From the IMG/VR virus record IMGVR_UViG_2667527965_000002: a stretch of 40,499 nucleotides of DNA; one strand, 5' to 3'. Below, in pieces: positions 3,986-40,499 of this stretch; the stretch's first letter is position 1, and each line of letters starts with the position of its first letter. The notes under the pieces are model-generated. The model was not told the DNA's origin and did no database searches. It saw nothing but the letters and a program-made list of their open reading frames with translations. Source of the DNA: a virus. Its lineage: Duplodnaviria > Heunggongvirae > Uroviricota > Caudoviricetes. Both the position numbers and the translations under genes were made by a program.

Positions 3986-4521
3986 GCGGCGCATTGGCGC
4001 TGCTCCATCAATTCGTTAAAGCGATTGATGAACATGCCGTATGACTGGCCAGGACGAACTGGATTGATAATGAATAAATCCGTTGGGACAACTCCCTCGA
4101 GGCATGGCCACACGGAACCTTCGTCAACCTCAAAATCGCGGCGTTCGCTGGCGAGCATCACCAGATCGGCATATTTCACAGTTGGGTGTTGTTCCGTCGG
4201 TAGGCCGAACTTCTGCCGAATGGCTGCATCCACGCGAGCTTCGATCACCTGGTAATCCGGAAGCAGGTGCTTAAGCGGGGATGGGATGTCCTGCAGGTAG
4301 GCTTCAGCAGCATCATGAAGCAGTGCTTCTAATGCAAACTCCTGCGGAACGAGGTGGCTGGTTAAAACGCTATGCTGGCCGACGCTATAAAACTCAGGAA
4401 GATGCCCTGCAAAACGGCAGATATGAGACAACGCGGTAGCAATATCCTCGATCACGATATCGTCCTGTTGGATATCGAGGTAATTAAAATGTTTGCCGGA
4501 TAATGTCTGAATGTAGCTCAT
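3982..4521 (-). CDS. HD-domain phosphohydrolase (YfbR-like 5'-deoxynucleotidase family)
   Basis: HD-domain-like H...HD...D spacing (SHICRFAGH...LLHDAAEAY...D); start at ATG 4521 preceded by GGAG; track ORF begins at an upstream GTG. Confidence 0.7.
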   Translation of the reverse strand: MSYIQTLSGKHFNYLDIQQDDIVIEDIATALSHICRFAGHLPEFYSVGQHSVLTSHLVPQEFALEALLHDAAEAYLQDIPSPLKHLLPDYQVIEARVDAAIRQKFGLPTEQHPTVKYADLVMLASERRDFEVDEGSVWPCLEGVVPTDLFIINPVRPGQSYGMFINRFNELMEQRQCAA

Positions 4522-4628
4522 GGTTTTCTCCATATTGGCGCGCTGCACCGCGCTATTAAATTAATGAATTGCTAAATTTAGCGTGCAGCAACCCAACCCA
4601 TGACATGGGTTAATTACGGTCTGGGGTA

Positions 4629-5778: not shown

Positions 5779-6124
5779 AACACTTCACGCAGCATTCAAG
5801 TTGTGGCGCCAGGCGCTTGTCTTCTGGTTGTCTCGATGGACTGCAATTCACCACAACGAAGAGAACATTGCCGGTGTTCGAATCGAACGAACCTTTTCCC
5901 TGCCCAACCCTCCCAACTAAATGGGACTGTCTGGAATCGAACCAGCACTTATGCCTTGCTCGTCAATGTTCTCATCGTTGTGCCCTGAAAAAGGCTGGCG
6001 GTTACCGGAAATACACGGGAAAACACCGGGCCGCCAGAACAGGGAAGTACTTGTTATTGCTTTGGCCTGCTTTTAACCACATCAGGCGTGGTGGTATCTT
6101 GGTGTTCTCACACAACCAAGAGGG

Positions 6125-6328
6125 ATGTTTATGGGCGCTTTTGATAACCAGGAAATTACGTTACCCGCATGCCCTAAGTGCGGCACTAAGACGAAGAAGA
6201 AAATCGCTTGGCTCAAGTCGAACAAAAGTTTCACTTGTCGATGTGGAGCTACTATCAATGTCAACAGCAGCCAGCTTACTTCCGAAATCAGGATGGTTGA
6301 GGACAAGCTGAAGAAGCTCTTTAAATAG
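6125..6328 (+). CDS. Small zinc-ribbon protein (CPKCG-x17-CRCG)
   Basis: 67 aa ORF with purine-first codon periodicity, AGAGGGA upstream of ATG, and an intrinsic terminator 28 nt downstream; overlaps 3' part of the convergent ORF 6161-6526. Confidence 0.45.
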   Translation: MFMGAFDNQEITLPACPKCGTKTKKKIAWLKSNKSFTCRCGATINVNSSQLTSEIRMVEDKLKKLFK

Positions 6329-14733: not shown

Positions 14734-14760
14734 AAGGCCGCCTTAATGCGGCCTTTTTTG
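14734..14760 (+). terminator. Rho-independent terminator
   Basis: Stem GGCCGC/GCGGCC with 6-nt loop followed by TTTTTT. Confidence 0.65.
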
Positions 14761-14805
14761 TTTCCCCTCGTTCTGAGAGGACTCACAGCAATAAGAGGGG
14801 GCTTA

Positions 14806-15201
14806 ATGTCCGATCCTGTTTCTGGCACTACGGTTGCGGCTGGTGGCCTGATGGGAGCCAGCGTATTTGGTCTTGCAACCGGTATTGACTATGGCGTGGT
14901 ATTTGGCGCATTCGCTGGTGCAGTATTTTATGTAGCGACAGCGGCAAATATCACACGAGTACGATTGATTGCTTACTTCATGACGTCCTTCATTGTTGGC
15001 GTTCTTGCCGCTGGCCTGGTTGGTTCTAAGCTGTCACAGGCTACCGGGTACAGTGACAGGCCATTAGACGCACTTGGTGCTGTTGTAGTGGCGGCGATGA
15101 CAATCAAAGTGCTCACATTTTTCAACAGTCAGGATTTGGGAAGCCTGTTCAGTATTCTTTCGCGATTCCGTGGAGGAGGGGCCAGCAATGGTAACAAGTG
15201 A
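14806..15201 (+). CDS. Putative holin-like membrane protein
   Basis: About 131 aa with three hydrophobic segments directly upstream of the endolysin; ATG 14806 with AGAGGGGG SD. Confidence 0.45.
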   Translation: MSDPVSGTTVAAGGLMGASVFGLATGIDYGVVFGAFAGAVFYVATAANITRVRLIAYFMTSFIVGVLAAGLVGSKLSQATGYSDRPLDALGAVVVAAMTIKVLTFFNSQDLGSLFSILSRFRGGGASNGNK

Positions 15202-15469
15202 TCTGTCAGCGATGGTGAATGCAGGTATTTGTGCGGTCATCGTCCTTGTCCTGATGTTCTACCAGCGTGAAGGGGCAAGACATCGCCCCGCTATATCATT
15301 GCTGGCTTACTTCGTTGTGCTGGTTTATGCCAGCGTTCCATTCCGATATTTGTTTGGCCTCTACCAGGAGTCACACTGGATGGTGGTCATCGTAAACCTT
15401 CTTATTTGCGCTGCCGTCTTATGGGCTCGTGGGAACGTGGCGCGTCTCGTTGATACGCTGAGGCATTAA
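15188..15469 (+). CDS. Putative holin / antiholin membrane protein
   Basis: 94 aa with hydrophobic helices; GGAGGAGGGG SD; stop overlaps endolysin start (TAATG). Confidence 0.45.
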   Translation: MVTSDLSAMVNAGICAVIVLVLMFYQREGARHRPAISLLAYFVVLVYASVPFRYLFGLYQESHWMVVIVNLLICAAVLWARGNVARLVDTLRH

Positions 15470-16086
15470 TGAACCAATCACAATTTCAACAGGCGGCTGG
15501 TGTAAGCGCCGGGTTAGCTTCGCGCTGGTTTCCGCACATTGATGCAGCGATGAAAGAGTTCGGCATTATTAAGCCTGAAGACCAGGCAATGTTTATTGCT
15601 CAGTCAGGACATGAATCAGCGGGATTCTCCGCGCTGGTGGAGAGCTTCAACTACACCCCAGCCGCTCTGCTGACCACCTTTGGACGCCGTATTACGAACT
15701 ATCAGGCATATATGCTTGGGCGTGACAAAGAAAAAGGGCAGGTAGCCAATCAGCCAGCCATTGCAAATCTGGTGTACAGCAATCGCCTCGGTAACAAAGC
15801 ATCAGGTGATGGGTGGAAATATCGTGGGCGTGGCCTGATTCAGATTACCGGTCTTGATAATTACCGCCGCTGCGGAACGGGATTAAAACTGGATTTAGTC
15901 AGTAATCCTGAGTTGCTGGAAAAGGATATCAACGCAGCACGGTCAGCTGCATGGTTCTACGCCACCAGCGGATGCCTGAGCTACTCCGGCGATCTTGTTC
16001 GCATCACTCAGATCATCAATGGTGGGCAGAACGGCATTAACGACCGCAGTGAACGTTACGCCAAAGCTAAAGCCGCACTGGTATGA
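15469..16086 (+). CDS. Endolysin, glycoside hydrolase family 19 (chitinase-like lysozyme)
   Basis: 205 aa with GH19-like catalytic region (QSGHESAGFS ... GRGLIQITG ...); follows holin-like genes. Confidence 0.85.
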   Translation: MNQSQFQQAAGVSAGLASRWFPHIDAAMKEFGIIKPEDQAMFIAQSGHESAGFSALVESFNYTPAALLTTFGRRITNYQAYMLGRDKEKGQVANQPAIANLVYSNRLGNKASGDGWKYRGRGLIQITGLDNYRRCGTGLKLDLVSNPELLEKDINAARSAAWFYATSGCLSYSGDLVRITQIINGGQNGINDRSERYAKAKAALV

Positions 16087-16363: not shown

Positions 16364-16526
16364 AGTAACGGACACGGCCTGTGACTGGGTGAGCATCATC
16401 TACCTCACTGAGCACGATATTGCCGTGCTGGATAAACAGACGAAGCGGGACATATTGGCGCACAACAAATCAGTGCAGGCTAACTGCATGAAGGAGCCAG
16501 GTCGTGAACGTAGAGAACCTAAGTGA
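16284..16526 (+). CDS. o-spanin (Rz1-like) lipoprotein, out-of-frame overlap with i-spanin
   Basis: Signal peptide ending LTASC lipobox-like; embedded/overlapping arrangement typical of spanin pairs. Confidence 0.45.
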   Translation: MYSKLLVIFLMTMLTASCAKNLPAKPEVTDTACDWVSIIYLTEHDIAVLDKQTKRDILAHNKSVQANCMKEPGRERREPK

Positions 16527-16734
16527 CGCGCATTACATCTATAACGAGATGAAAGAGCTACAGCGACAGAAAGGCATACTGGAAAGCGGTGCCGGACTTG
16601 GGGTGACAATCCAGTCGACCTATCAGGATAATGCCTTTCTTGATGCCATACGCCCGCATGCAGTGGATGAACTTGATCGGCGTATAGAGGAGAAAAAAGA
16701 TGTACTGGTTAATTTGGGCCTCTCCTTCTCTTAA
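16504..16734 (+). CDS. Hypothetical small protein
   Basis: GTG start with AGGAG SD; 76 aa. Confidence 0.3.
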   Translation: MNVENLSDAHYIYNEMKELQRQKGILESGAGLGVTIQSTYQDNAFLDAIRPHAVDELDRRIEEKKDVLVNLGLSFS

Positions 16735-16779
16735 ACTATCATGCATTACAGCAGGCACGTATCAGGTGCCTGCCATCAG

Positions 16780-17220
16780 TTAATAGGATATTTTATCGGA
16801 AGACTTGAGCGCTTTTAATGTAGCTTCAAGTATATCGAGAAATAGATCAACATCTTCATAATCATAAGATGGATTAGGTTTGTACTCCCCAATGTAAACC
16901 AACCCATTTTTACCTAAAAAGAAGCTAATTACTTCCTTGTTATTTTCATCAGTTGAGTCAGTTGCAACGAACTTCAAAAGAGGGGCTTCATTGATGACTA
17001 CCAGTTTCTCATTGAAAACGAGTTCTAACCCATATGTTGAAAGTTCTAGGGTTAGTCTGTTTTCTGCATCTTGATTGAAAATCAAGGTGTTAGAAGTTAA
17101 AGAACTTTCTTTGCATGAGTCAATAACGTTTTTCTTAAGTTTGATTGCTTTTTCATCTAAAGCCTTTTTGTGTTCTGCACACTTAATAACCTTACGGACG
17201 TCTAAATAGTCGATGCTCAT
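16780..17220 (-). CDS. AT-rich antisense moron: hypothetical soluble protein
   Basis: 146 aa from ATG 17220 with AAGAGG SD; low GC; opposite to flanking late genes; hairpin GCAGGCAC/GTGCCTGC at 16750-16772 downstream. Confidence 0.55.
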   Translation of the reverse strand: MSIDYLDVRKVIKCAEHKKALDEKAIKLKKNVIDSCKESSLTSNTLIFNQDAENRLTLELSTYGLELVFNEKLVVINEAPLLKFVATDSTDENNKEVISFFLGKNGLVYIGEYKPNPSYDYEDVDLFLDILEATLKALKSSDKISY

Positions 17221-17311
17221 AATTAAACCTCTTATTGATGAGTTAATAAACATTGAGCCATTAAGGCCAATATCAATACTAAAGAATGAGAAAGTTTAAG
17301 TTATTAGAGTT

Positions 17312-38647: not shown

Positions 38648-38715
38648 TGCGCGAATAATCCCTGTTCTGGTGATTGATAGTTTTAACCAGTATTGATCTG
38701 CCTTCAAATTAAAAC

Positions 38716-38735
38716 TACTGTATATATATACAGTA
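38716..38735. promoter_or_regulatory. Consensus LexA (SOS) box
   Basis: TACTGTATATATATACAGTA, perfect CTGT-N8-ACAG palindrome, 20 bp upstream of the umuD-like start. Confidence 0.8.
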
Positions 38736-38754
38736 AGTTACAAAGGAGGTAATT

Positions 38755-39083
38755 ATGCAACTACAACGCCTTATTTTTCCGGACGTTCCGGTATATATCC
38801 CTGTTTATGGGGATCTCATTTCGGCAGGCTTTCCCAGTCCTGCCGCTGACTATATCGAGAGCGGCATCGATCTGTGTCGCATCTTATTCTCCACCCCTCA
38901 TCGACATATACACTTCGCGTCGCCAGAGATTCAATGATCAATGCCGGCATCCTCGATGGTTCATACCTTCTCATTGATTTCAGCCTCCATCCCGAAGACG
39001 GTGATATTGTCGTCAGTAACATCGTGGGCGGGTCTGGTTTCTACAAAGATTCCCGCACAACGGGCGGGAATCGGGTAAGCTGA
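38755..39083 (+). pseudogene. umuD-like S24 peptidase gene, frameshifted and 3'-truncated
   Basis: Frame 1 encodes ...GFPSPAADYIESGIDL..., frame 0 continues ...HPSSTYTLRVARDSMINAGILDG...; frames switch around 38885-38892; ORF ends well before the expected C-terminus. Confidence 0.6.
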
Positions 39084-39102
39084 ACGGCATGAAATTGCCG
39101 GG

Positions 39103-39705
39103 CTAGTTTAAAAATGGATAAACTTTAAAAGAAGCCCATAAATCATTGTTAAGTGCCAACAAACCTACGGAGATATAGGATAATATCGCAAGTGCTCCTG
39201 TAAAATAAAGTATGGATTTCTTTATTTTTTTCCAAAGAATTAGGGCTGGAATTGAAGTTACGGCAATCACACCCATCTGATAACAAAATTGTCTGGCAAT
39301 GTCACCATCACTCCAAGGGTATATAAAAACATAAGGGGCGAAAAGTATTAAATGGACAAGTCTAAGTATAACCCCTATACATGCCCCAGGTATTGCAAAA
39401 AAGCCCCCCGCGCTTTGTAATAATAAGCTTGCCCTCATGCCGGGTATGAGAATAAAAAAATTAAGAATAGCCCAGAATATTAATATTATCGTGGCATAGC
39501 CAAAAAGAGTGCTTAACCCAGATTGACCGCCAACTGCTGTAAACTGTGGCGTCTGGTAAGACTGGCTCGGCTGACTAACTGATTTGCTGGCATCACATGC
39601 ACTTTGCCAGCTCTCTGCATTGTCTGCCTGCCATTTATGATCATACTGTGTAAAAGGCCTGTCACTGGTAACATACTTGCCTTCATCATCTTGCCTAACA
39701 CCCAT
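39103..39705 (-). CDS. AT-rich hypothetical polytopic membrane protein
   Basis: 200 aa; about 70-aa polar N-terminal region then about four hydrophobic helices; low GC. Confidence 0.55.
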   Translation of the reverse strand: MGVRQDDEGKYVTSDRPFTQYDHKWQADNAESWQSACDASKSVSQPSQSYQTPQFTAVGGQSGLSTLFGYATIILIFWAILNFFILIPGMRASLLLQSAGGFFAIPGACIGVILRLVHLILFAPYVFIYPWSDGDIARQFCYQMGVIAVTSIPALILWKKIKKSILYFTGALAILSYISVGLLALNNDLWASFKVYPFLN

Positions 39706-39902
39706 ATTTAAGCCCCACTATTTTTATTCATGCCGACATGTGTAGTTGTACGACTTATACTTAATGGAAGGTACGATCCCGTAGTCGTTACACTTGATAT
39801 GATAACGCAATATGACCTATACAGAAGAGAACAATTACAGCAACCACTTCCGGTAGGATGCGGTCTCTAGCATTCAACATAACTCTCTGGGGCTTTCAGG
39901 AT

Positions 39903-40142
39903 TTAACCCGCAGCCAGCCTCATATCGGCCTCTTCAAACATATCTTCCAACATGCGATTCAGTTTTTCCTGATCACTCTTGCTGGCATCGCTGTTTAAGC
40001 CGTTCGCCTGCATCGGCTTAACCTTCACTTCTGCATCCGGAAAGATCCGGTGCACTCGCTTTGTTAACTCATTCAGAATTATTTCTCTGGCACCTGTTAA
40101 TCCTTCAACATTCCGTTTGTCGTACACCAACTCAACGAACAT
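39903..40142 (-). CDS. DinI-like DNA-damage-inducible protein
   Basis: About 79 aa from ATG 40142 (GGAGG SD); sequence and acidic C-terminus resemble DinI family; LexA-like box upstream. Confidence 0.65.
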   Translation of the reverse strand: MFVELVYDKRNVEGLTGAREIILNELTKRVHRIFPDAEVKVKPMQANGLNSDASKSDQEKLNRMLEDMFEEADMRLAAG

Positions 40143-40180
40143 ACCGCCTCCAAAGCAACAATGATTTTGCACGCAATTTA

Positions 40181-40200
40181 TACTGTTTATTTATATAGCG
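40181..40200. promoter_or_regulatory. LexA-box-like palindrome upstream of the DinI-like gene
   Basis: TACTGTTTATTTATATAGCG: CTGT-N8-ATAG, one mismatch from the SOS box consensus. Confidence 0.5.
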
Positions 40201-40207
40201 TCAACGG

Positions 40208-40290
40208 TTGGGCACGTAGCTTTTTAAGGAAGGTTTTTGGGGCATGTATGGGGCATAAATGCCAGTTTTGGGGCATGGTTGGGACATTTT
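40208..40290. repeat. Cluster of direct repeats TTGGGGCAT (candidate integrase arm-type sites)
   Basis: GGGGCAT at 40240-40246, 40250-40256, 40270-40276; GGGACAT at 40281-40287; GGGCAC at 40210-40215; 110-190 bp inside the inferred junction. Confidence 0.4.
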
Positions 40291-40389
40291 AACTCATATG
40301 AACTTAACCGAATTTCATATGGAGGCGTCTTATAATGCACTGATTAACTTAAAGAAAACACATGCTCTTGGGCGTTCTTTAGTGATTTT

Positions 40390-40420
40390 AAAAATTACCG
40401 CGTCACGCAGTTAAAGTGGC
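40390..40420. other. Inferred prophage-host right junction (attR core region)
   Basis: Host-like DUF72 reading frame entering from the right edge diverges from the family pattern and stops here. Confidence 0.4.
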
Positions 40421-40499
40421 GGGCATACTCTTCAAGGCTGGTGATCCCCAACCGCACCCATTTAGGATGCGACCATTGCGGTAGACCGATGTAAATCAT
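40395..40499 (-). pseudogene. 5' fragment of a host DUF72/YecE-like gene truncated by prophage insertion
   Basis: Minus-strand ATG at window end encodes MIYIGLPQWSHPKWVRLGITSLEEYARHFNCV then TR-stop; matches the conserved N-terminal pattern of DUF72 proteins. Confidence 0.5.

What the first reader, a model, noticed from the sequence alone, without database searches (positions are those of the whole stretch)
38700..40200. SOS-regulated right-end cargo: frameshifted umuD-like gene, AT-rich membrane protein gene and DinI-like gene
A perfect consensus LexA box (38716-38735) precedes a umuD-like S24 gene that is frameshifted near 38885-38892 and lacks its C-terminal third; the umuC partner is absent. 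The truncation coincides with an AT-rich segment carrying a minus-strand membrane protein gene (39103-39705), followed by a DinI-like gene with its own LexA-like box (40181-40200). This suggests an ancestral SOS operon partly replaced by an insertion, and the membrane protein is a candidate exclusion or abortive-infection factor embedded in SOS-controlled context.
Basis: partly seen in the sequence, partly recalled or inferred. Interest (0 to 1): 0.5.

Follow-up and report, generated by a model that had tools for sequence, protein, structure and literature searches.

The report
Dead umuD, dinI and membrane gene
The last 1.8 kb of this yecE-integrated E. coli prophage holds the dead remnant of a phage-borne error-prone-polymerase (umuDC) operon facing an intact DinI gene that is followed by a rare, uncharacterised membrane-protein gene; this is ordinary prophage accessory-gene decay, and only the membrane protein is a real unknown.

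Summary
A perfect 20-nt LexA box (38716-38735) precedes a umuD pseudogene. Homology to umuD stops at about 39024/39025, so codons 91-145 (including Lys97) are gone, and no umuC exists anywhere in the window. Cronobacter phage ENT39118 and several Enterobacter prophages carry tail fibre, LexA box and intact umuD-umuC in exactly this slot, so this is a relic of a phage umuDC operon.

The frameshift is not a sequencing error. The exact 60-aa product occurs on 62 public contigs, and in-frame copies with the same truncation junction exist, so truncation came first.

The 200-aa, four-helix membrane gene (39103-39705, minus) does not look like an independent insertion. It lies 197 nt downstream of dinI on the same strand, with no terminator between them and a hairpin after it. 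Co-transcription from the dinI LexA-box promoter is therefore likely but inferred. In this copy that box is weakened (CTGT to CTAT).

The membrane protein belongs to a tiny family (about 10 clusters among 1.8 billion) with no known domain, defence-system or fold match. The exclusion/abortive-infection idea is untested. Interest is low to moderate.

The parts
38693..38721 (+). Candidate SOS promoter of the umuD relic: -35 TTGATC (38693-38698), 17-nt spacer, -10 TACTGT (38716-38721), which overlaps the LexA box.
   Evidence: Read from the sequence. A TTGAxx -35-like element is conserved in intact Enterobacter umuDC prophages. It falls below the threshold of the promoter scan, so this is inferred.
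38716..38735 (.). Perfect-consensus palindromic LexA box, TACTGTATATATATACAGTA.
   Evidence: I10. It is the only zero-mismatch CTGT-N8-ACAG in the window. Homologous boxes precede intact umuDC in L014/L015 and other cargo in L002/L004.
38744..38749 (+). Ribosome-binding site AGGAGG, 5 nt before the umuD ATG.
   Evidence: Sequence; conserved in L014/L015.
38755..38874 (+). umuD pseudogene, codons 1-40, including the Ala24-Gly25 cleavage site. The out-of-frame ORF runs on to 38937.
38872..38873 (+). Site of the 1-nt deletion (CTT GTG to C-T GTG) that causes the frameshift.
   Evidence: DNA alignment with intact umuD of L014/L015. The same lesion is in L018-L020 and L029. It is absent from the in-frame truncated copies P0025/P0029.
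38874..39024 (+). umuD pseudogene, codons 41-90 in the second frame. Ser60 is retained but GDSM has become RDSM. The ORF continues into unrelated sequence up to the stop at 39083.
39025..39102 (.). Post-junction spacer (58% GC), unrelated to umuD. It contains a 9-bp hairpin at 39048-39072 followed by UUUGU on the minus strand, a terminator-like end for the dinI-membrane unit.
   Evidence: (z -2.1). The junction is identical in L004, L018-20, L027 and L029-31.
39103..39705 (-). Intact gene for a 200-aa inner-membrane protein. It has a hydrophilic N-terminal region of about 62 aa with the conserved motif GKYVTSDRPFxQYDHKWQADNA, then four predicted transmembrane helices (63-99, 104-128, 136-156, 158-184) with a KKIKK loop.
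   Evidence: (dN/dS 0.2-0.29).
39706..39902 (-). dinI-membrane gene spacer. It has no terminator-like site, no significant RNA structure and no sigma-70-like promoter on the minus strand. Only a degenerate remnant (ACAACT-17-AAAAAT) sits where the stand-alone homologue has TTAACT-17-TATAAT.
39903..40142 (-). dinI (79 aa), phi80 dinL type. RBS GGAGG at 40147-40151.
40175..40204 (-). dinI promoter (TTGACG-18-TAAATT) overlapping the LexA box at 40181-40200. In this copy the box reads CTAT-N8-ACAG instead of the CTGT-N8-ACAG of phi80 and L004.
40235..40287 (.). Repeated (T)GGGGCAT motifs between dinI and the yecE fragment. They are probably integrase arm-type sites of attR.
   Evidence: D1. Similar repeats lie at the same place in L002. 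The function is inferred.
40395..40499 (-). 5' fragment of host yecE (DUF72), marking the right prophage-host junction.

Best explanation
This is the accessory ('moron') end of a phi80-like prophage integrated in yecE. It is built from two convergent transcription units, each with a LexA box.

(1) Rightward unit. A promoter, a perfect LexA box and a ribosome-binding site precede a dead umuD. It is the remnant of a phage-borne umuDC (DNA polymerase V) operon that is intact at this exact position, just after the tail-fibre gene, in related phages. A single old deletion or illegitimate recombination removed umuD codons 91-145 (including catalytic Lys97) and all of umuC. Later, this lineage also acquired a 1-nt deletion at codon 40/41 and a Gly58-to-Arg change in the GDSM motif. 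The relic cannot make UmuD' or Pol V. At most, its promoter still fires during the SOS response.

(2) Leftward unit. A LexA-box promoter drives dinI, which encodes a modulator of RecA filaments. After a 197-nt spacer without a terminator comes a 200-aa, four-helix inner-membrane protein gene, then a hairpin. The membrane protein is therefore most likely the second gene of a dinI-led, DNA-damage-responsive operon. The precedent is the Gifsy dinI-antirepressor-irsA operon. In this copy a G-to-A change in the invariant CTG of the LexA box probably makes expression leaky.

The membrane protein is kept under purifying selection and belongs to a very small family found in accessory slots of Enterobacteriaceae prophages and satellites. 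My committed but weakly supported guess is that it benefits the lysogen at the inner membrane, for example by blocking entry of superinfecting phage.

Shown: the anatomy, the pseudogene lesions, the intact relatives, the shared junction, the rarity of the family and the selection on it.
Inferred: co-transcription, LexA control in vivo and any function of the membrane protein.
For: Relic of umuDC:
- L014/L015/L016 and phage ENT39118 have tail fibre, umuD (145 aa) and umuC.
- The window is 88-89% identical to them over 38699-39024 only.
- The frameshift and the breakpoint are seen at base level.
- No umuC is present in the window.
- The joined product aligns with E. coli UmuD residues 13-92.

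Old and real, not an artefact:
- The same junction is in L004, L018-20, L027 and L029-31, from E. coli, Enterobacter and Pseudescherichia.
- In-frame truncated versions P0025/P0029 carry the same tail.
- The exact 60-aa product is on 62 contigs.
- SZQ1 shares the right end but has a different left half of the prophage.

dinI unit:
- Pfam DinI match and 97% identity to phi80 dinL with its annotated LexA site.
- The promoter overlaps the box, and the box is mutated relative to phi80 and L004.
- No terminator or RNA structure lies between dinI and the membrane gene, and a hairpin follows it.
- The dinI-membrane linkage is kept in all close copies.
- The stand-alone homologue has a good promoter of its own, which is degenerate here.
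- Precedent: a LexA-regulated dinI-first operon in Gifsy prophages (PMC3121763).

Membrane protein:
- dN/dS is 0.2-0.29, and it is more conserved than the flanking relic: about 1.2% DNA divergence against about 5-9%, from the difference counts.
- It has four predicted helices.
- Only about 10 clusters are found in 1.84e9 representatives and 9 in 5.8e9 proteins.
- Distant members sit after the lysis cassette of a Kosakonia prophage and a Citrobacter locus that carries a phage Rz (spanin) fragment upstream, and in a P4-like satellite.
Against: - Co-transcription is inferred only from the absence of a consensus terminator or promoter in simple scans. A 197-nt gap could hide a non-consensus promoter or a Rho-dependent terminator.
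- The terminator-like hairpin has a weak U tract.
- Distant family members have no LexA boxes, and one lies between housekeeping genes (L007). SOS control is therefore not a property of the family.
- Some copies of the membrane gene are themselves frameshifted (L027, L032), so it is dispensable in some hosts.
- No homology, domain or fold evidence supports any particular function.
- The AF2 model is of only moderate confidence (pLDDT 65, 7-sequence alignment), and the membrane topology of the N-terminal domain is undecided.
Confidence: 0.72

Rival explanations
1. First reader's version. An AT-rich foreign cassette carrying the membrane gene inserted into an intact umuDC operon, truncating umuD and displacing umuC. 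The membrane protein is a superinfection-exclusion or abortive-infection factor.
For: - The membrane gene is 40% GC, in the lowest 2% of 600-nt windows.
- It abuts the truncated umuD.
- It is prophage-borne and membrane-embedded.
- A relative sits in a P4-like satellite near a SIR2/DUF87 defence pair.
Against: - No inverted or direct repeats or IS remnants flank the gene.
- The low GC is confined to the transmembrane-coding part, as expected from hydrophobic codon usage, and the junction-proximal 78 nt is GC-rich.
- The gene is always linked to dinI on the same strand.
- No genome was found with umuC on the far side of it.
- There are no PADLOC, PHROG or Pfam hits.
Confidence: 0.2
2. The membrane gene is an independently and constitutively expressed lysogenic-conversion gene. 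It is unrelated to the SOS response and simply lies next to dinI.
For: - There is a 197-nt gap.
- Distant homologues lack LexA boxes, and one has its own strong promoter.
- A weak remnant of that promoter persists here.
Against: - No minus-strand sigma-70-like site was found in the gap, and no terminator after dinI.
- The remnant matches only about 6 of 12 consensus positions.
- The dinI linkage is conserved across lineages, and two lineages share a deletion that brings dinI and the membrane gene closer (82 nt in L004).
Confidence: 0.3
3. The truncated or frameshifted umuD still has a role. Either its 60-aa N-terminal peptide acts on partners of the UmuD arm (RecA*, the beta clamp), or the retained perfect LexA-box promoter drives antisense, convergent transcription that tunes the membrane gene.
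For: - The promoter, perfect LexA box and RBS are intact.
- There is no efficient plus-strand terminator before the membrane gene.
- The exact 60-aa ORF is widespread.
Against: - The relic diverges faster than the membrane gene.
- It accumulates further lesions: G58R here, a LexA-box mutation (CTGC) in L018-20, and 5' truncations in L004 and L031.
- There is no slippery heptamer at the shift site.
Confidence: 0.08
4. The frameshift is a sequencing or assembly error and the gene is a single open frame.
For: None beyond the general possibility; the lesion is a single-base deletion.
Against: - The sequence is identical in E. coli SZQ1, whose prophage differs elsewhere.
- The lesion is also in Enterobacter sp. 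ENT03 and in metagenomic contigs that are about 5% diverged.
- The exact product occurs on 62 contigs.
- Even a restored frame lacks codons 91-145.
Confidence: 0.01

Closest known systems
Phage-borne umuDC of Cronobacter phage ENT39118 (HQ201307) and Enterobacter prophages (e.g. Enterobacter sp. kpr-6, GCA_900116015)
   Same: Same slot (directly after the tail-fibre gene, at the att-proximal end), same LexA box and RBS layout. Identity is 88-89% DNA and up to 87% protein to the Enterobacter prophage umuD over codons 1-90; ENT39118 UmuD is 73% identical.
   Different: Those are intact (umuD 145 aa plus umuC 422 aa). Here umuD is frameshifted, truncated after codon 90 and carries G58R, and umuC is gone.
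E. coli UmuD (PDB 8gmt_B, 1umu)
   Same: Colinear alignment over residues 13-92. The Ala/Cys24-Gly25 cleavage site and Ser60 sit at identical positions.
   Different: Lacks Lys97 and the C-terminal beta-strands, is not a single ORF, and has no partner UmuC.
phi80 dinL / mEp237 DinI with their LexA site
   Same: 97% DNA identity from 39914 to 40499. This covers dinI, its promoter, the LexA-site position and the yecE' fragment.
   Different: phi80 has no umuD relic and no membrane gene between the tail fibre and dinL. Its box is CTGT-N8-ACAG, whereas the window has CTAT.
LexA-regulated dinI-gftA/gfoA-irsA operon of Salmonella Gifsy prophages (Lemire et al. 2011, PMC3121763)
   Same: [quoted passage not shown]
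   Different: The downstream genes there are a small soluble antirepressor and irsA. Here the downstream gene is a 200-aa membrane protein, and the prophage has a CI-type HTH+S24 repressor, so no antirepressor is needed. Co-transcription has not been demonstrated here.
Prophage error-prone-polymerase morons of Acinetobacter baumannii (CP5 umuD-rumB next to integrase; Hare et al. 2014, PMC3978071) and P1/P7 HumD
   Same: UmuD-family genes carried as DNA-damage-regulated cargo at prophage ends. HumD also has a LexA site.
   Different: Those are functional genes. HumD is a pre-cleaved UmuD' analogue only 46% identical to this one.

Membership tests
UmuD / Peptidase S24 (Pol V accessory subunit) | S24 domain recognisable by profile | tested here: met
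   PF00717 E 4.4e-13, but only profile positions 1-75 of 116. NF007621 scores 79.5 bits, below the 110-bit cut-off. PHROG 811 E 1.8e-28.
UmuD / Peptidase S24 (Pol V accessory subunit) | Single uninterrupted reading frame of about 140-145 aa | tested here: not met
   A 1-nt deletion at 38872/3 splits it into 60-aa and 69-aa ORFs.
UmuD / Peptidase S24 (Pol V accessory subunit) | Ser60-Lys97 catalytic dyad | tested here: not met
   The Ser60 codon is present, but GDSM reads RDSM. Lys97 lies beyond the breakpoint at 39024/5 and is absent.
UmuD / Peptidase S24 (Pol V accessory subunit) | Adjacent umuC (Y-family polymerase) partner | tested here: not met
   tblastn of the Enterobacter UmuC against the whole window gave a best E of 2.3.
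UmuD / Peptidase S24 (Pol V accessory subunit) | LexA box in the promoter | tested here: met
   Perfect consensus at 38716-38735. LexA binding itself was not tested.
DinI family | DinI domain above the curated threshold, about 80 aa, acidic C-terminal helix | tested here: met
   PF06183 at 73.7 bits against a cut-off of 24.2. The protein is 79 aa and its C-terminus reads ...EKLNRMLEDMFEEADM.... It is not the chromosomal equivalog (NF007893 at 33.6 bits against a cut-off of 111).
DinI family | SOS (LexA) control | tested here: inconclusive
   The box overlaps the promoter, but one half-site reads CTAT instead of CTGT. phi80 and L004 have the canonical core.
LexA-regulated dinI-first prophage operon (Gifsy type) | Downstream gene(s) co-transcribed with dinI | tested here: inconclusive
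   Same strand, no terminator-like site or stable structure in the 197-nt gap, and a hairpin after the second gene. No transcript data are available.
LexA-regulated dinI-first prophage operon (Gifsy type) | Downstream gene is a small antirepressor | tested here: not met
   The second gene encodes a 200-aa four-helix membrane protein. Only 28-30-aa ORFs lie in the gap. The prophage repressor is HTH_3 + Peptidase_S24.
Known superinfection-exclusion / abortive-infection / defence membrane proteins | Sequence or fold similarity to a described family | tested here: not met
Known superinfection-exclusion / abortive-infection / defence membrane proteins | Protective phenotype against phage | not testable with these tools
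   Needs plaque or efficiency-of-plating assays with and without the gene.

The most novel reading that the evidence does not exclude
The 200-aa protein founds a new family of prophage inner-membrane effectors. In this module it has been captured as the second gene of a LexA/DinI operon, so that DNA damage switches on a membrane function such as exclusion of incoming phage, abortive infection or control of lysis timing. The still-perfect LexA-box promoter of the dead umuD may provide convergent antisense tuning.
Probability: 0.15. Interest if true: 0.55.

Novelty: new member of a known kind. Interest (0 to 1): 0.25.

Why it matters
Mostly this is a clean worked example of how prophage cargo decays and is reshuffled. 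A phage-borne Pol V operon was truncated once, then frameshifted. It then spread as a 1.4-kb 'umuD relic - membrane gene - dinI' module between E. coli, Enterobacter and Pseudescherichia prophages.

For annotation it corrects the 'S24 family peptidase / LexA family protein' calls on the 69-aa fragment.

The one open item is the membrane protein. The family is very rare, is under selection, is associated with mobile elements and has no known relatives, and it may be expressed during the SOS response. If it proved to be an SOS-switched exclusion or lysis-modulating factor, it would add a new effector type to prophage-host biology. Nothing here shows that yet.

Tried and rejected
- Sequencing-error explanation: rejected.
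- Programmed frameshifting: rejected. There is no slippery heptamer at 38866-38880, and the C-terminus is missing in any case.
- Transposon or IS insertion signature around the membrane gene: none found.
- RNA element between dinI and the membrane gene: no Rfam hit, and the fold is no better than shuffled sequence (z 0.11).
- Domain and defence annotation of the membrane protein: Pfam, NCBIfam, PHROGs and PADLOC were all empty, also for distant homologues.
- tblastn of the membrane protein against 50,697 phage genomes: no match.
- Search for a genome with intact umuDC next to the membrane gene, which would show a deletion: 4 loci in GTDB species representatives, none with umuC.
- IrsA-like identity for the membrane protein: considered and dropped. 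The family has no Salmonella/Gifsy members in two exhaustive searches.
- The 30-aa hydrophobic ORF at 39788-39880 as a TisB/DinQ-like toxin: not pursued as real. Its start is deleted in L004 and L027, and conservation does not stop at its stop codon.
Full report
OBSERVATION.
- The 20-mer TACTGTATATATATACAGTA lies at 38716-38735. It is the only zero-mismatch CTGT-N8-ACAG site in the 40.5-kb window.
- An AGGAGG ribosome-binding site and an ATG at 38755 follow. They open a 60-aa ORF (38755-38937). A second frame (38874-39083) gives a 69-aa ORF.
- The two pieces joined match Peptidase_S24 (E 4.4e-13, profile positions 1-75 of 116), the Pol V autoproteolytic-subunit model and PHROG 811 'UmuD-like'. 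They align colinearly with E. coli UmuD residues 13-92.
- dinI (39903-40142, minus strand) passes the Pfam DinI threshold.
- A 200-aa ORF with several hydrophobic segments lies on the minus strand at 39103-39705.

CONTEXT. The window is a prophage that starts with an integrase gene (1-1314) and ends in the 5' fragment of host yecE (40395-40499).
- The 586 bases from 39914 to the end are 97% identical to phages phi80 and mEp237, covering dinL/DinI, its annotated LexA site and the yecE' fragment.
- GGGGCAT repeats at 40235-40287 look like integrase arm sites. dinI is therefore the last gene before attR.
- Only one of 5,426 complete E. coli genomes (SZQ1) has the umuD fragment and the membrane gene, at 100% identity. 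Its prophage has a different left half (RecET, another integrase, a different host site). The window therefore comes from another genome, and the right end is a shared mosaic module.

THE umuD RELIC.
- Closest intact relatives. These are 145-aa UmuD proteins of Enterobacter (up to 87% identity over the first 90 residues). Their genes sit in prophages as tail fibre, LexA box, umuD and umuC (422 aa; L014-L016). The isolated Cronobacter phage ENT39118 has the same order, followed by its integrase.
- Extent of homology. The window is 88-89% identical to these loci from 38699 to 39024 and unrelated beyond.
- Lesions at base level:
  (b) homology stops after ...AACATCG at 39024, i.e. after codon 90 of 145, which removes Lys97 of the Ser60-Lys97 dyad;
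  (c) this copy also reads RDSM where relatives read GDSM.
- umuC. No umuC-like sequence exists anywhere in the window.
- History.
  - The 39024/39025 junction is identical in copies from E. coli, Enterobacter sp. ENT03, E. chuandaensis, Pseudescherichia and metagenomes (L004, L018-20, L027, L029-31).
  - Proteins P0025 and P0029 carry the same junction and tail (...NIVGVSGFYKDS...) without the frameshift. Truncation therefore came first and the frameshift later.
  - The exact 60-aa product is on 62 contigs.
- Decay. Some copies have further lesions: a LexA-box mutation to CTGC in L018-20, and 5' truncations in L004 and L031. This is the behaviour of a decaying pseudogene.

THE SLOT. In another yecE prophage (NCTC 13148, L002) the same tail-fibre end, intergenic region, LexA box and RBS are followed by different cargo. 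That cargo is a 79-aa PHROG 3893 protein and a HumD-like, 'pre-cleaved' UmuD' homologue that lacks GDSM. The position after the tail-fibre gene is thus a recurrent LexA-controlled cargo site for UmuD-family genes.

THE dinI UNIT.
- On the minus strand a promoter-like TTGACG-18-TAAATT (40204-40175) overlaps the LexA-like box.
- phi80 and L004 have the canonical CTGT-N8-ACAG core there. The window and SZQ1 have CTAT. This is a change in the CTG triplet that is invariant in LexA sites (established knowledge of the consensus). Repression is probably weakened; this is inferred, not measured.
- Between the dinI stop (39903) and the membrane-gene ATG (39705), the scan finds no terminator-like site and no minus-strand promoter-like site. 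The RNA folds no better than shuffled sequence, and Rfam finds nothing.
- Just after the membrane-gene stop there is a 9-bp GC-rich hairpin (39048-39072) followed by UUUGU (z -2.1). It lies inside the 78-nt, 58% GC segment that separates the gene from the umuD breakpoint.
- In every close copy the membrane gene lies downstream of dinI on the same strand.
- A 46%-identical stand-alone homologue (L007) has a 10-of-12 promoter, TTAACT-17-TATAAT, directly upstream. The homologous position here is degenerate, ACAACT-17-AAAAAT.
- Together this makes a dinI-membrane gene operon the most economical reading. [quoted passage not shown]
- It remains an inference. The independent-moron alternative gets 0.3.

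THE MEMBRANE PROTEIN.
- Hydropathy and an AlphaFold2 model (pLDDT 65; 76-87 in the helices) give four transmembrane helices (63-99, 104-128, 136-156, 158-184) with a KKIKK loop. They follow a hydrophilic N-terminal region of about 62 aa that is poorly modelled.
- The first 33 residues (MGVRxDxDGKYVTSDRPFxQYDHKWQADNA..W) are the best-conserved part between 46%-identical members.
- The family is remarkably small. There are 10 hits at E<=1e-3 among 1.84 billion representative proteins and 9 clusters among 5.8 billion, even with a profile. All named ones are Enterobacteriaceae.
- The >=90% cluster is not rare in absolute terms. The exact protein is on 29 contigs, and a close variant is on 249 contigs from E. 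coli and Enterobacter asburiae; other members of the cluster come from further Enterobacter species and Pseudescherichia.
- The gene is under purifying selection (dN/dS 0.20-0.29). It has diverged less (1.2%) than the adjacent relic (5-9%) between the window and L018; these divergences are computed from the difference counts.
- Distant members occupy other accessory slots: after the lysis cassette in a Kosakonia prophage, after an Rz (spanin) gene fragment in a Citrobacter locus where the homologue is frameshifted, beside the Nu1/ogr-delta/psu genes of a P4-like satellite, and between a permease and a DUF4056 gene. None of these has a LexA box.
- No Pfam, NCBIfam, PHROG or PADLOC model matches. 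No isolated phage genome encodes it, and fold searches are uninformative.

INSERTION OR DELETION? The low GC of the membrane gene (40.1%, lowest 2% of windows) is confined to its transmembrane-coding part (36%). Its N-terminal part is 48% and the junction spacer is 58%. No repeats or IS remnants flank it. I found no relative with umuC on the far side. A deletion or illegitimate recombination that joined umuD codon 90 to the 3' flank of a convergent dinI-membrane unit fits at least as well as an insertion. The data do not decide.

VERDICT. Prophage-borne, damage-regulated umuDC and dinI cargo is well known (P1 HumD; Acinetobacter prophages, PMC3978071; Gifsy dinI operon, PMC3121763). This is a new member of a known kind. 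The only open element is the uncharacterised membrane-protein family and its possible SOS coupling. Interest 0.25.

Noticed in passing
L002 5117-5727 (E. coli NCTC 13148) and L004 7053-7664 (minus strand): The same LexA-box slot after the tail-fibre gene carries a two-gene module instead of umuD. It consists of a 79-95-aa PHROG 3893 protein and a 107-109-aa HumD-like protein (PHROG 3469). The second protein starts exactly at the GFPSPAxDY motif, i.e. it is a 'pre-cleaved' UmuD', and it lacks the GDSM serine motif. RefSeq mislabels the first gene 'DNA polymerase V'.
   Followed up: partly
window 16500-17253: This is the most AT-rich stretch of the window (34.5% GC). It holds a 157-aa minus-strand ORF (16780-17253) with no Pfam hit, between the lysis cassette (holin 14746-15201, GH19 endolysin 15469-16086) and the HNH/terminase genes. 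This is the same post-lysis moron slot where distant homologues of the 200-aa membrane protein sit in Kosakonia and Citrobacter.
   Followed up: partly
window 39788-39880 (minus strand); L004 and L027: A 30-aa hydrophobic ORF (MLNARDRILPEVVAVIVLFCIGHIALSYQV) lies between dinI and the membrane gene. L004 and L027 share a deletion of about 96 nt that removes the dinI 3' end and fuses the rest of this ORF in frame to DinI (86 aa in L004). It is probably not a real gene.
   Followed up: partly
window 40235-40287: (T)GGGGCAT motifs are repeated about four times between dinI and the yecE fragment. Similar repeats lie at the same place in the NCTC 13148 prophage. They are probably integrase arm-type binding sites of attR.
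   Followed up: no
L003 (phi80) 4476-4586; L001 (SZQ1) 5805-6248: phi80, and the SZQ1 prophage at the phi80 site, carry a yecE 5' fragment inside the phage genome next to dinL. In SZQ1 a yecD fragment is present as well. This suggests a past imprecise excision from, or recombination with, a yecE-integrated prophage.
   Followed up: no
L004 6800-7053: Between the HumD-like gene and the umuD remnant lies a stretch whose six-frame translation shows GFEPP-type tRNA T-arm sequence. ARAGORN finds no complete tRNA there. It may be an old att/tRNA fragment marking a junction of two prophage remnants.
   Followed up: partly
window 39733-39761 (plus strand): A promoter-like CCGACA-17-TATACT points rightward into the antisense of dinI. 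phi80 annotates an ORF antisense to dinL at the corresponding place.
   Followed up: no
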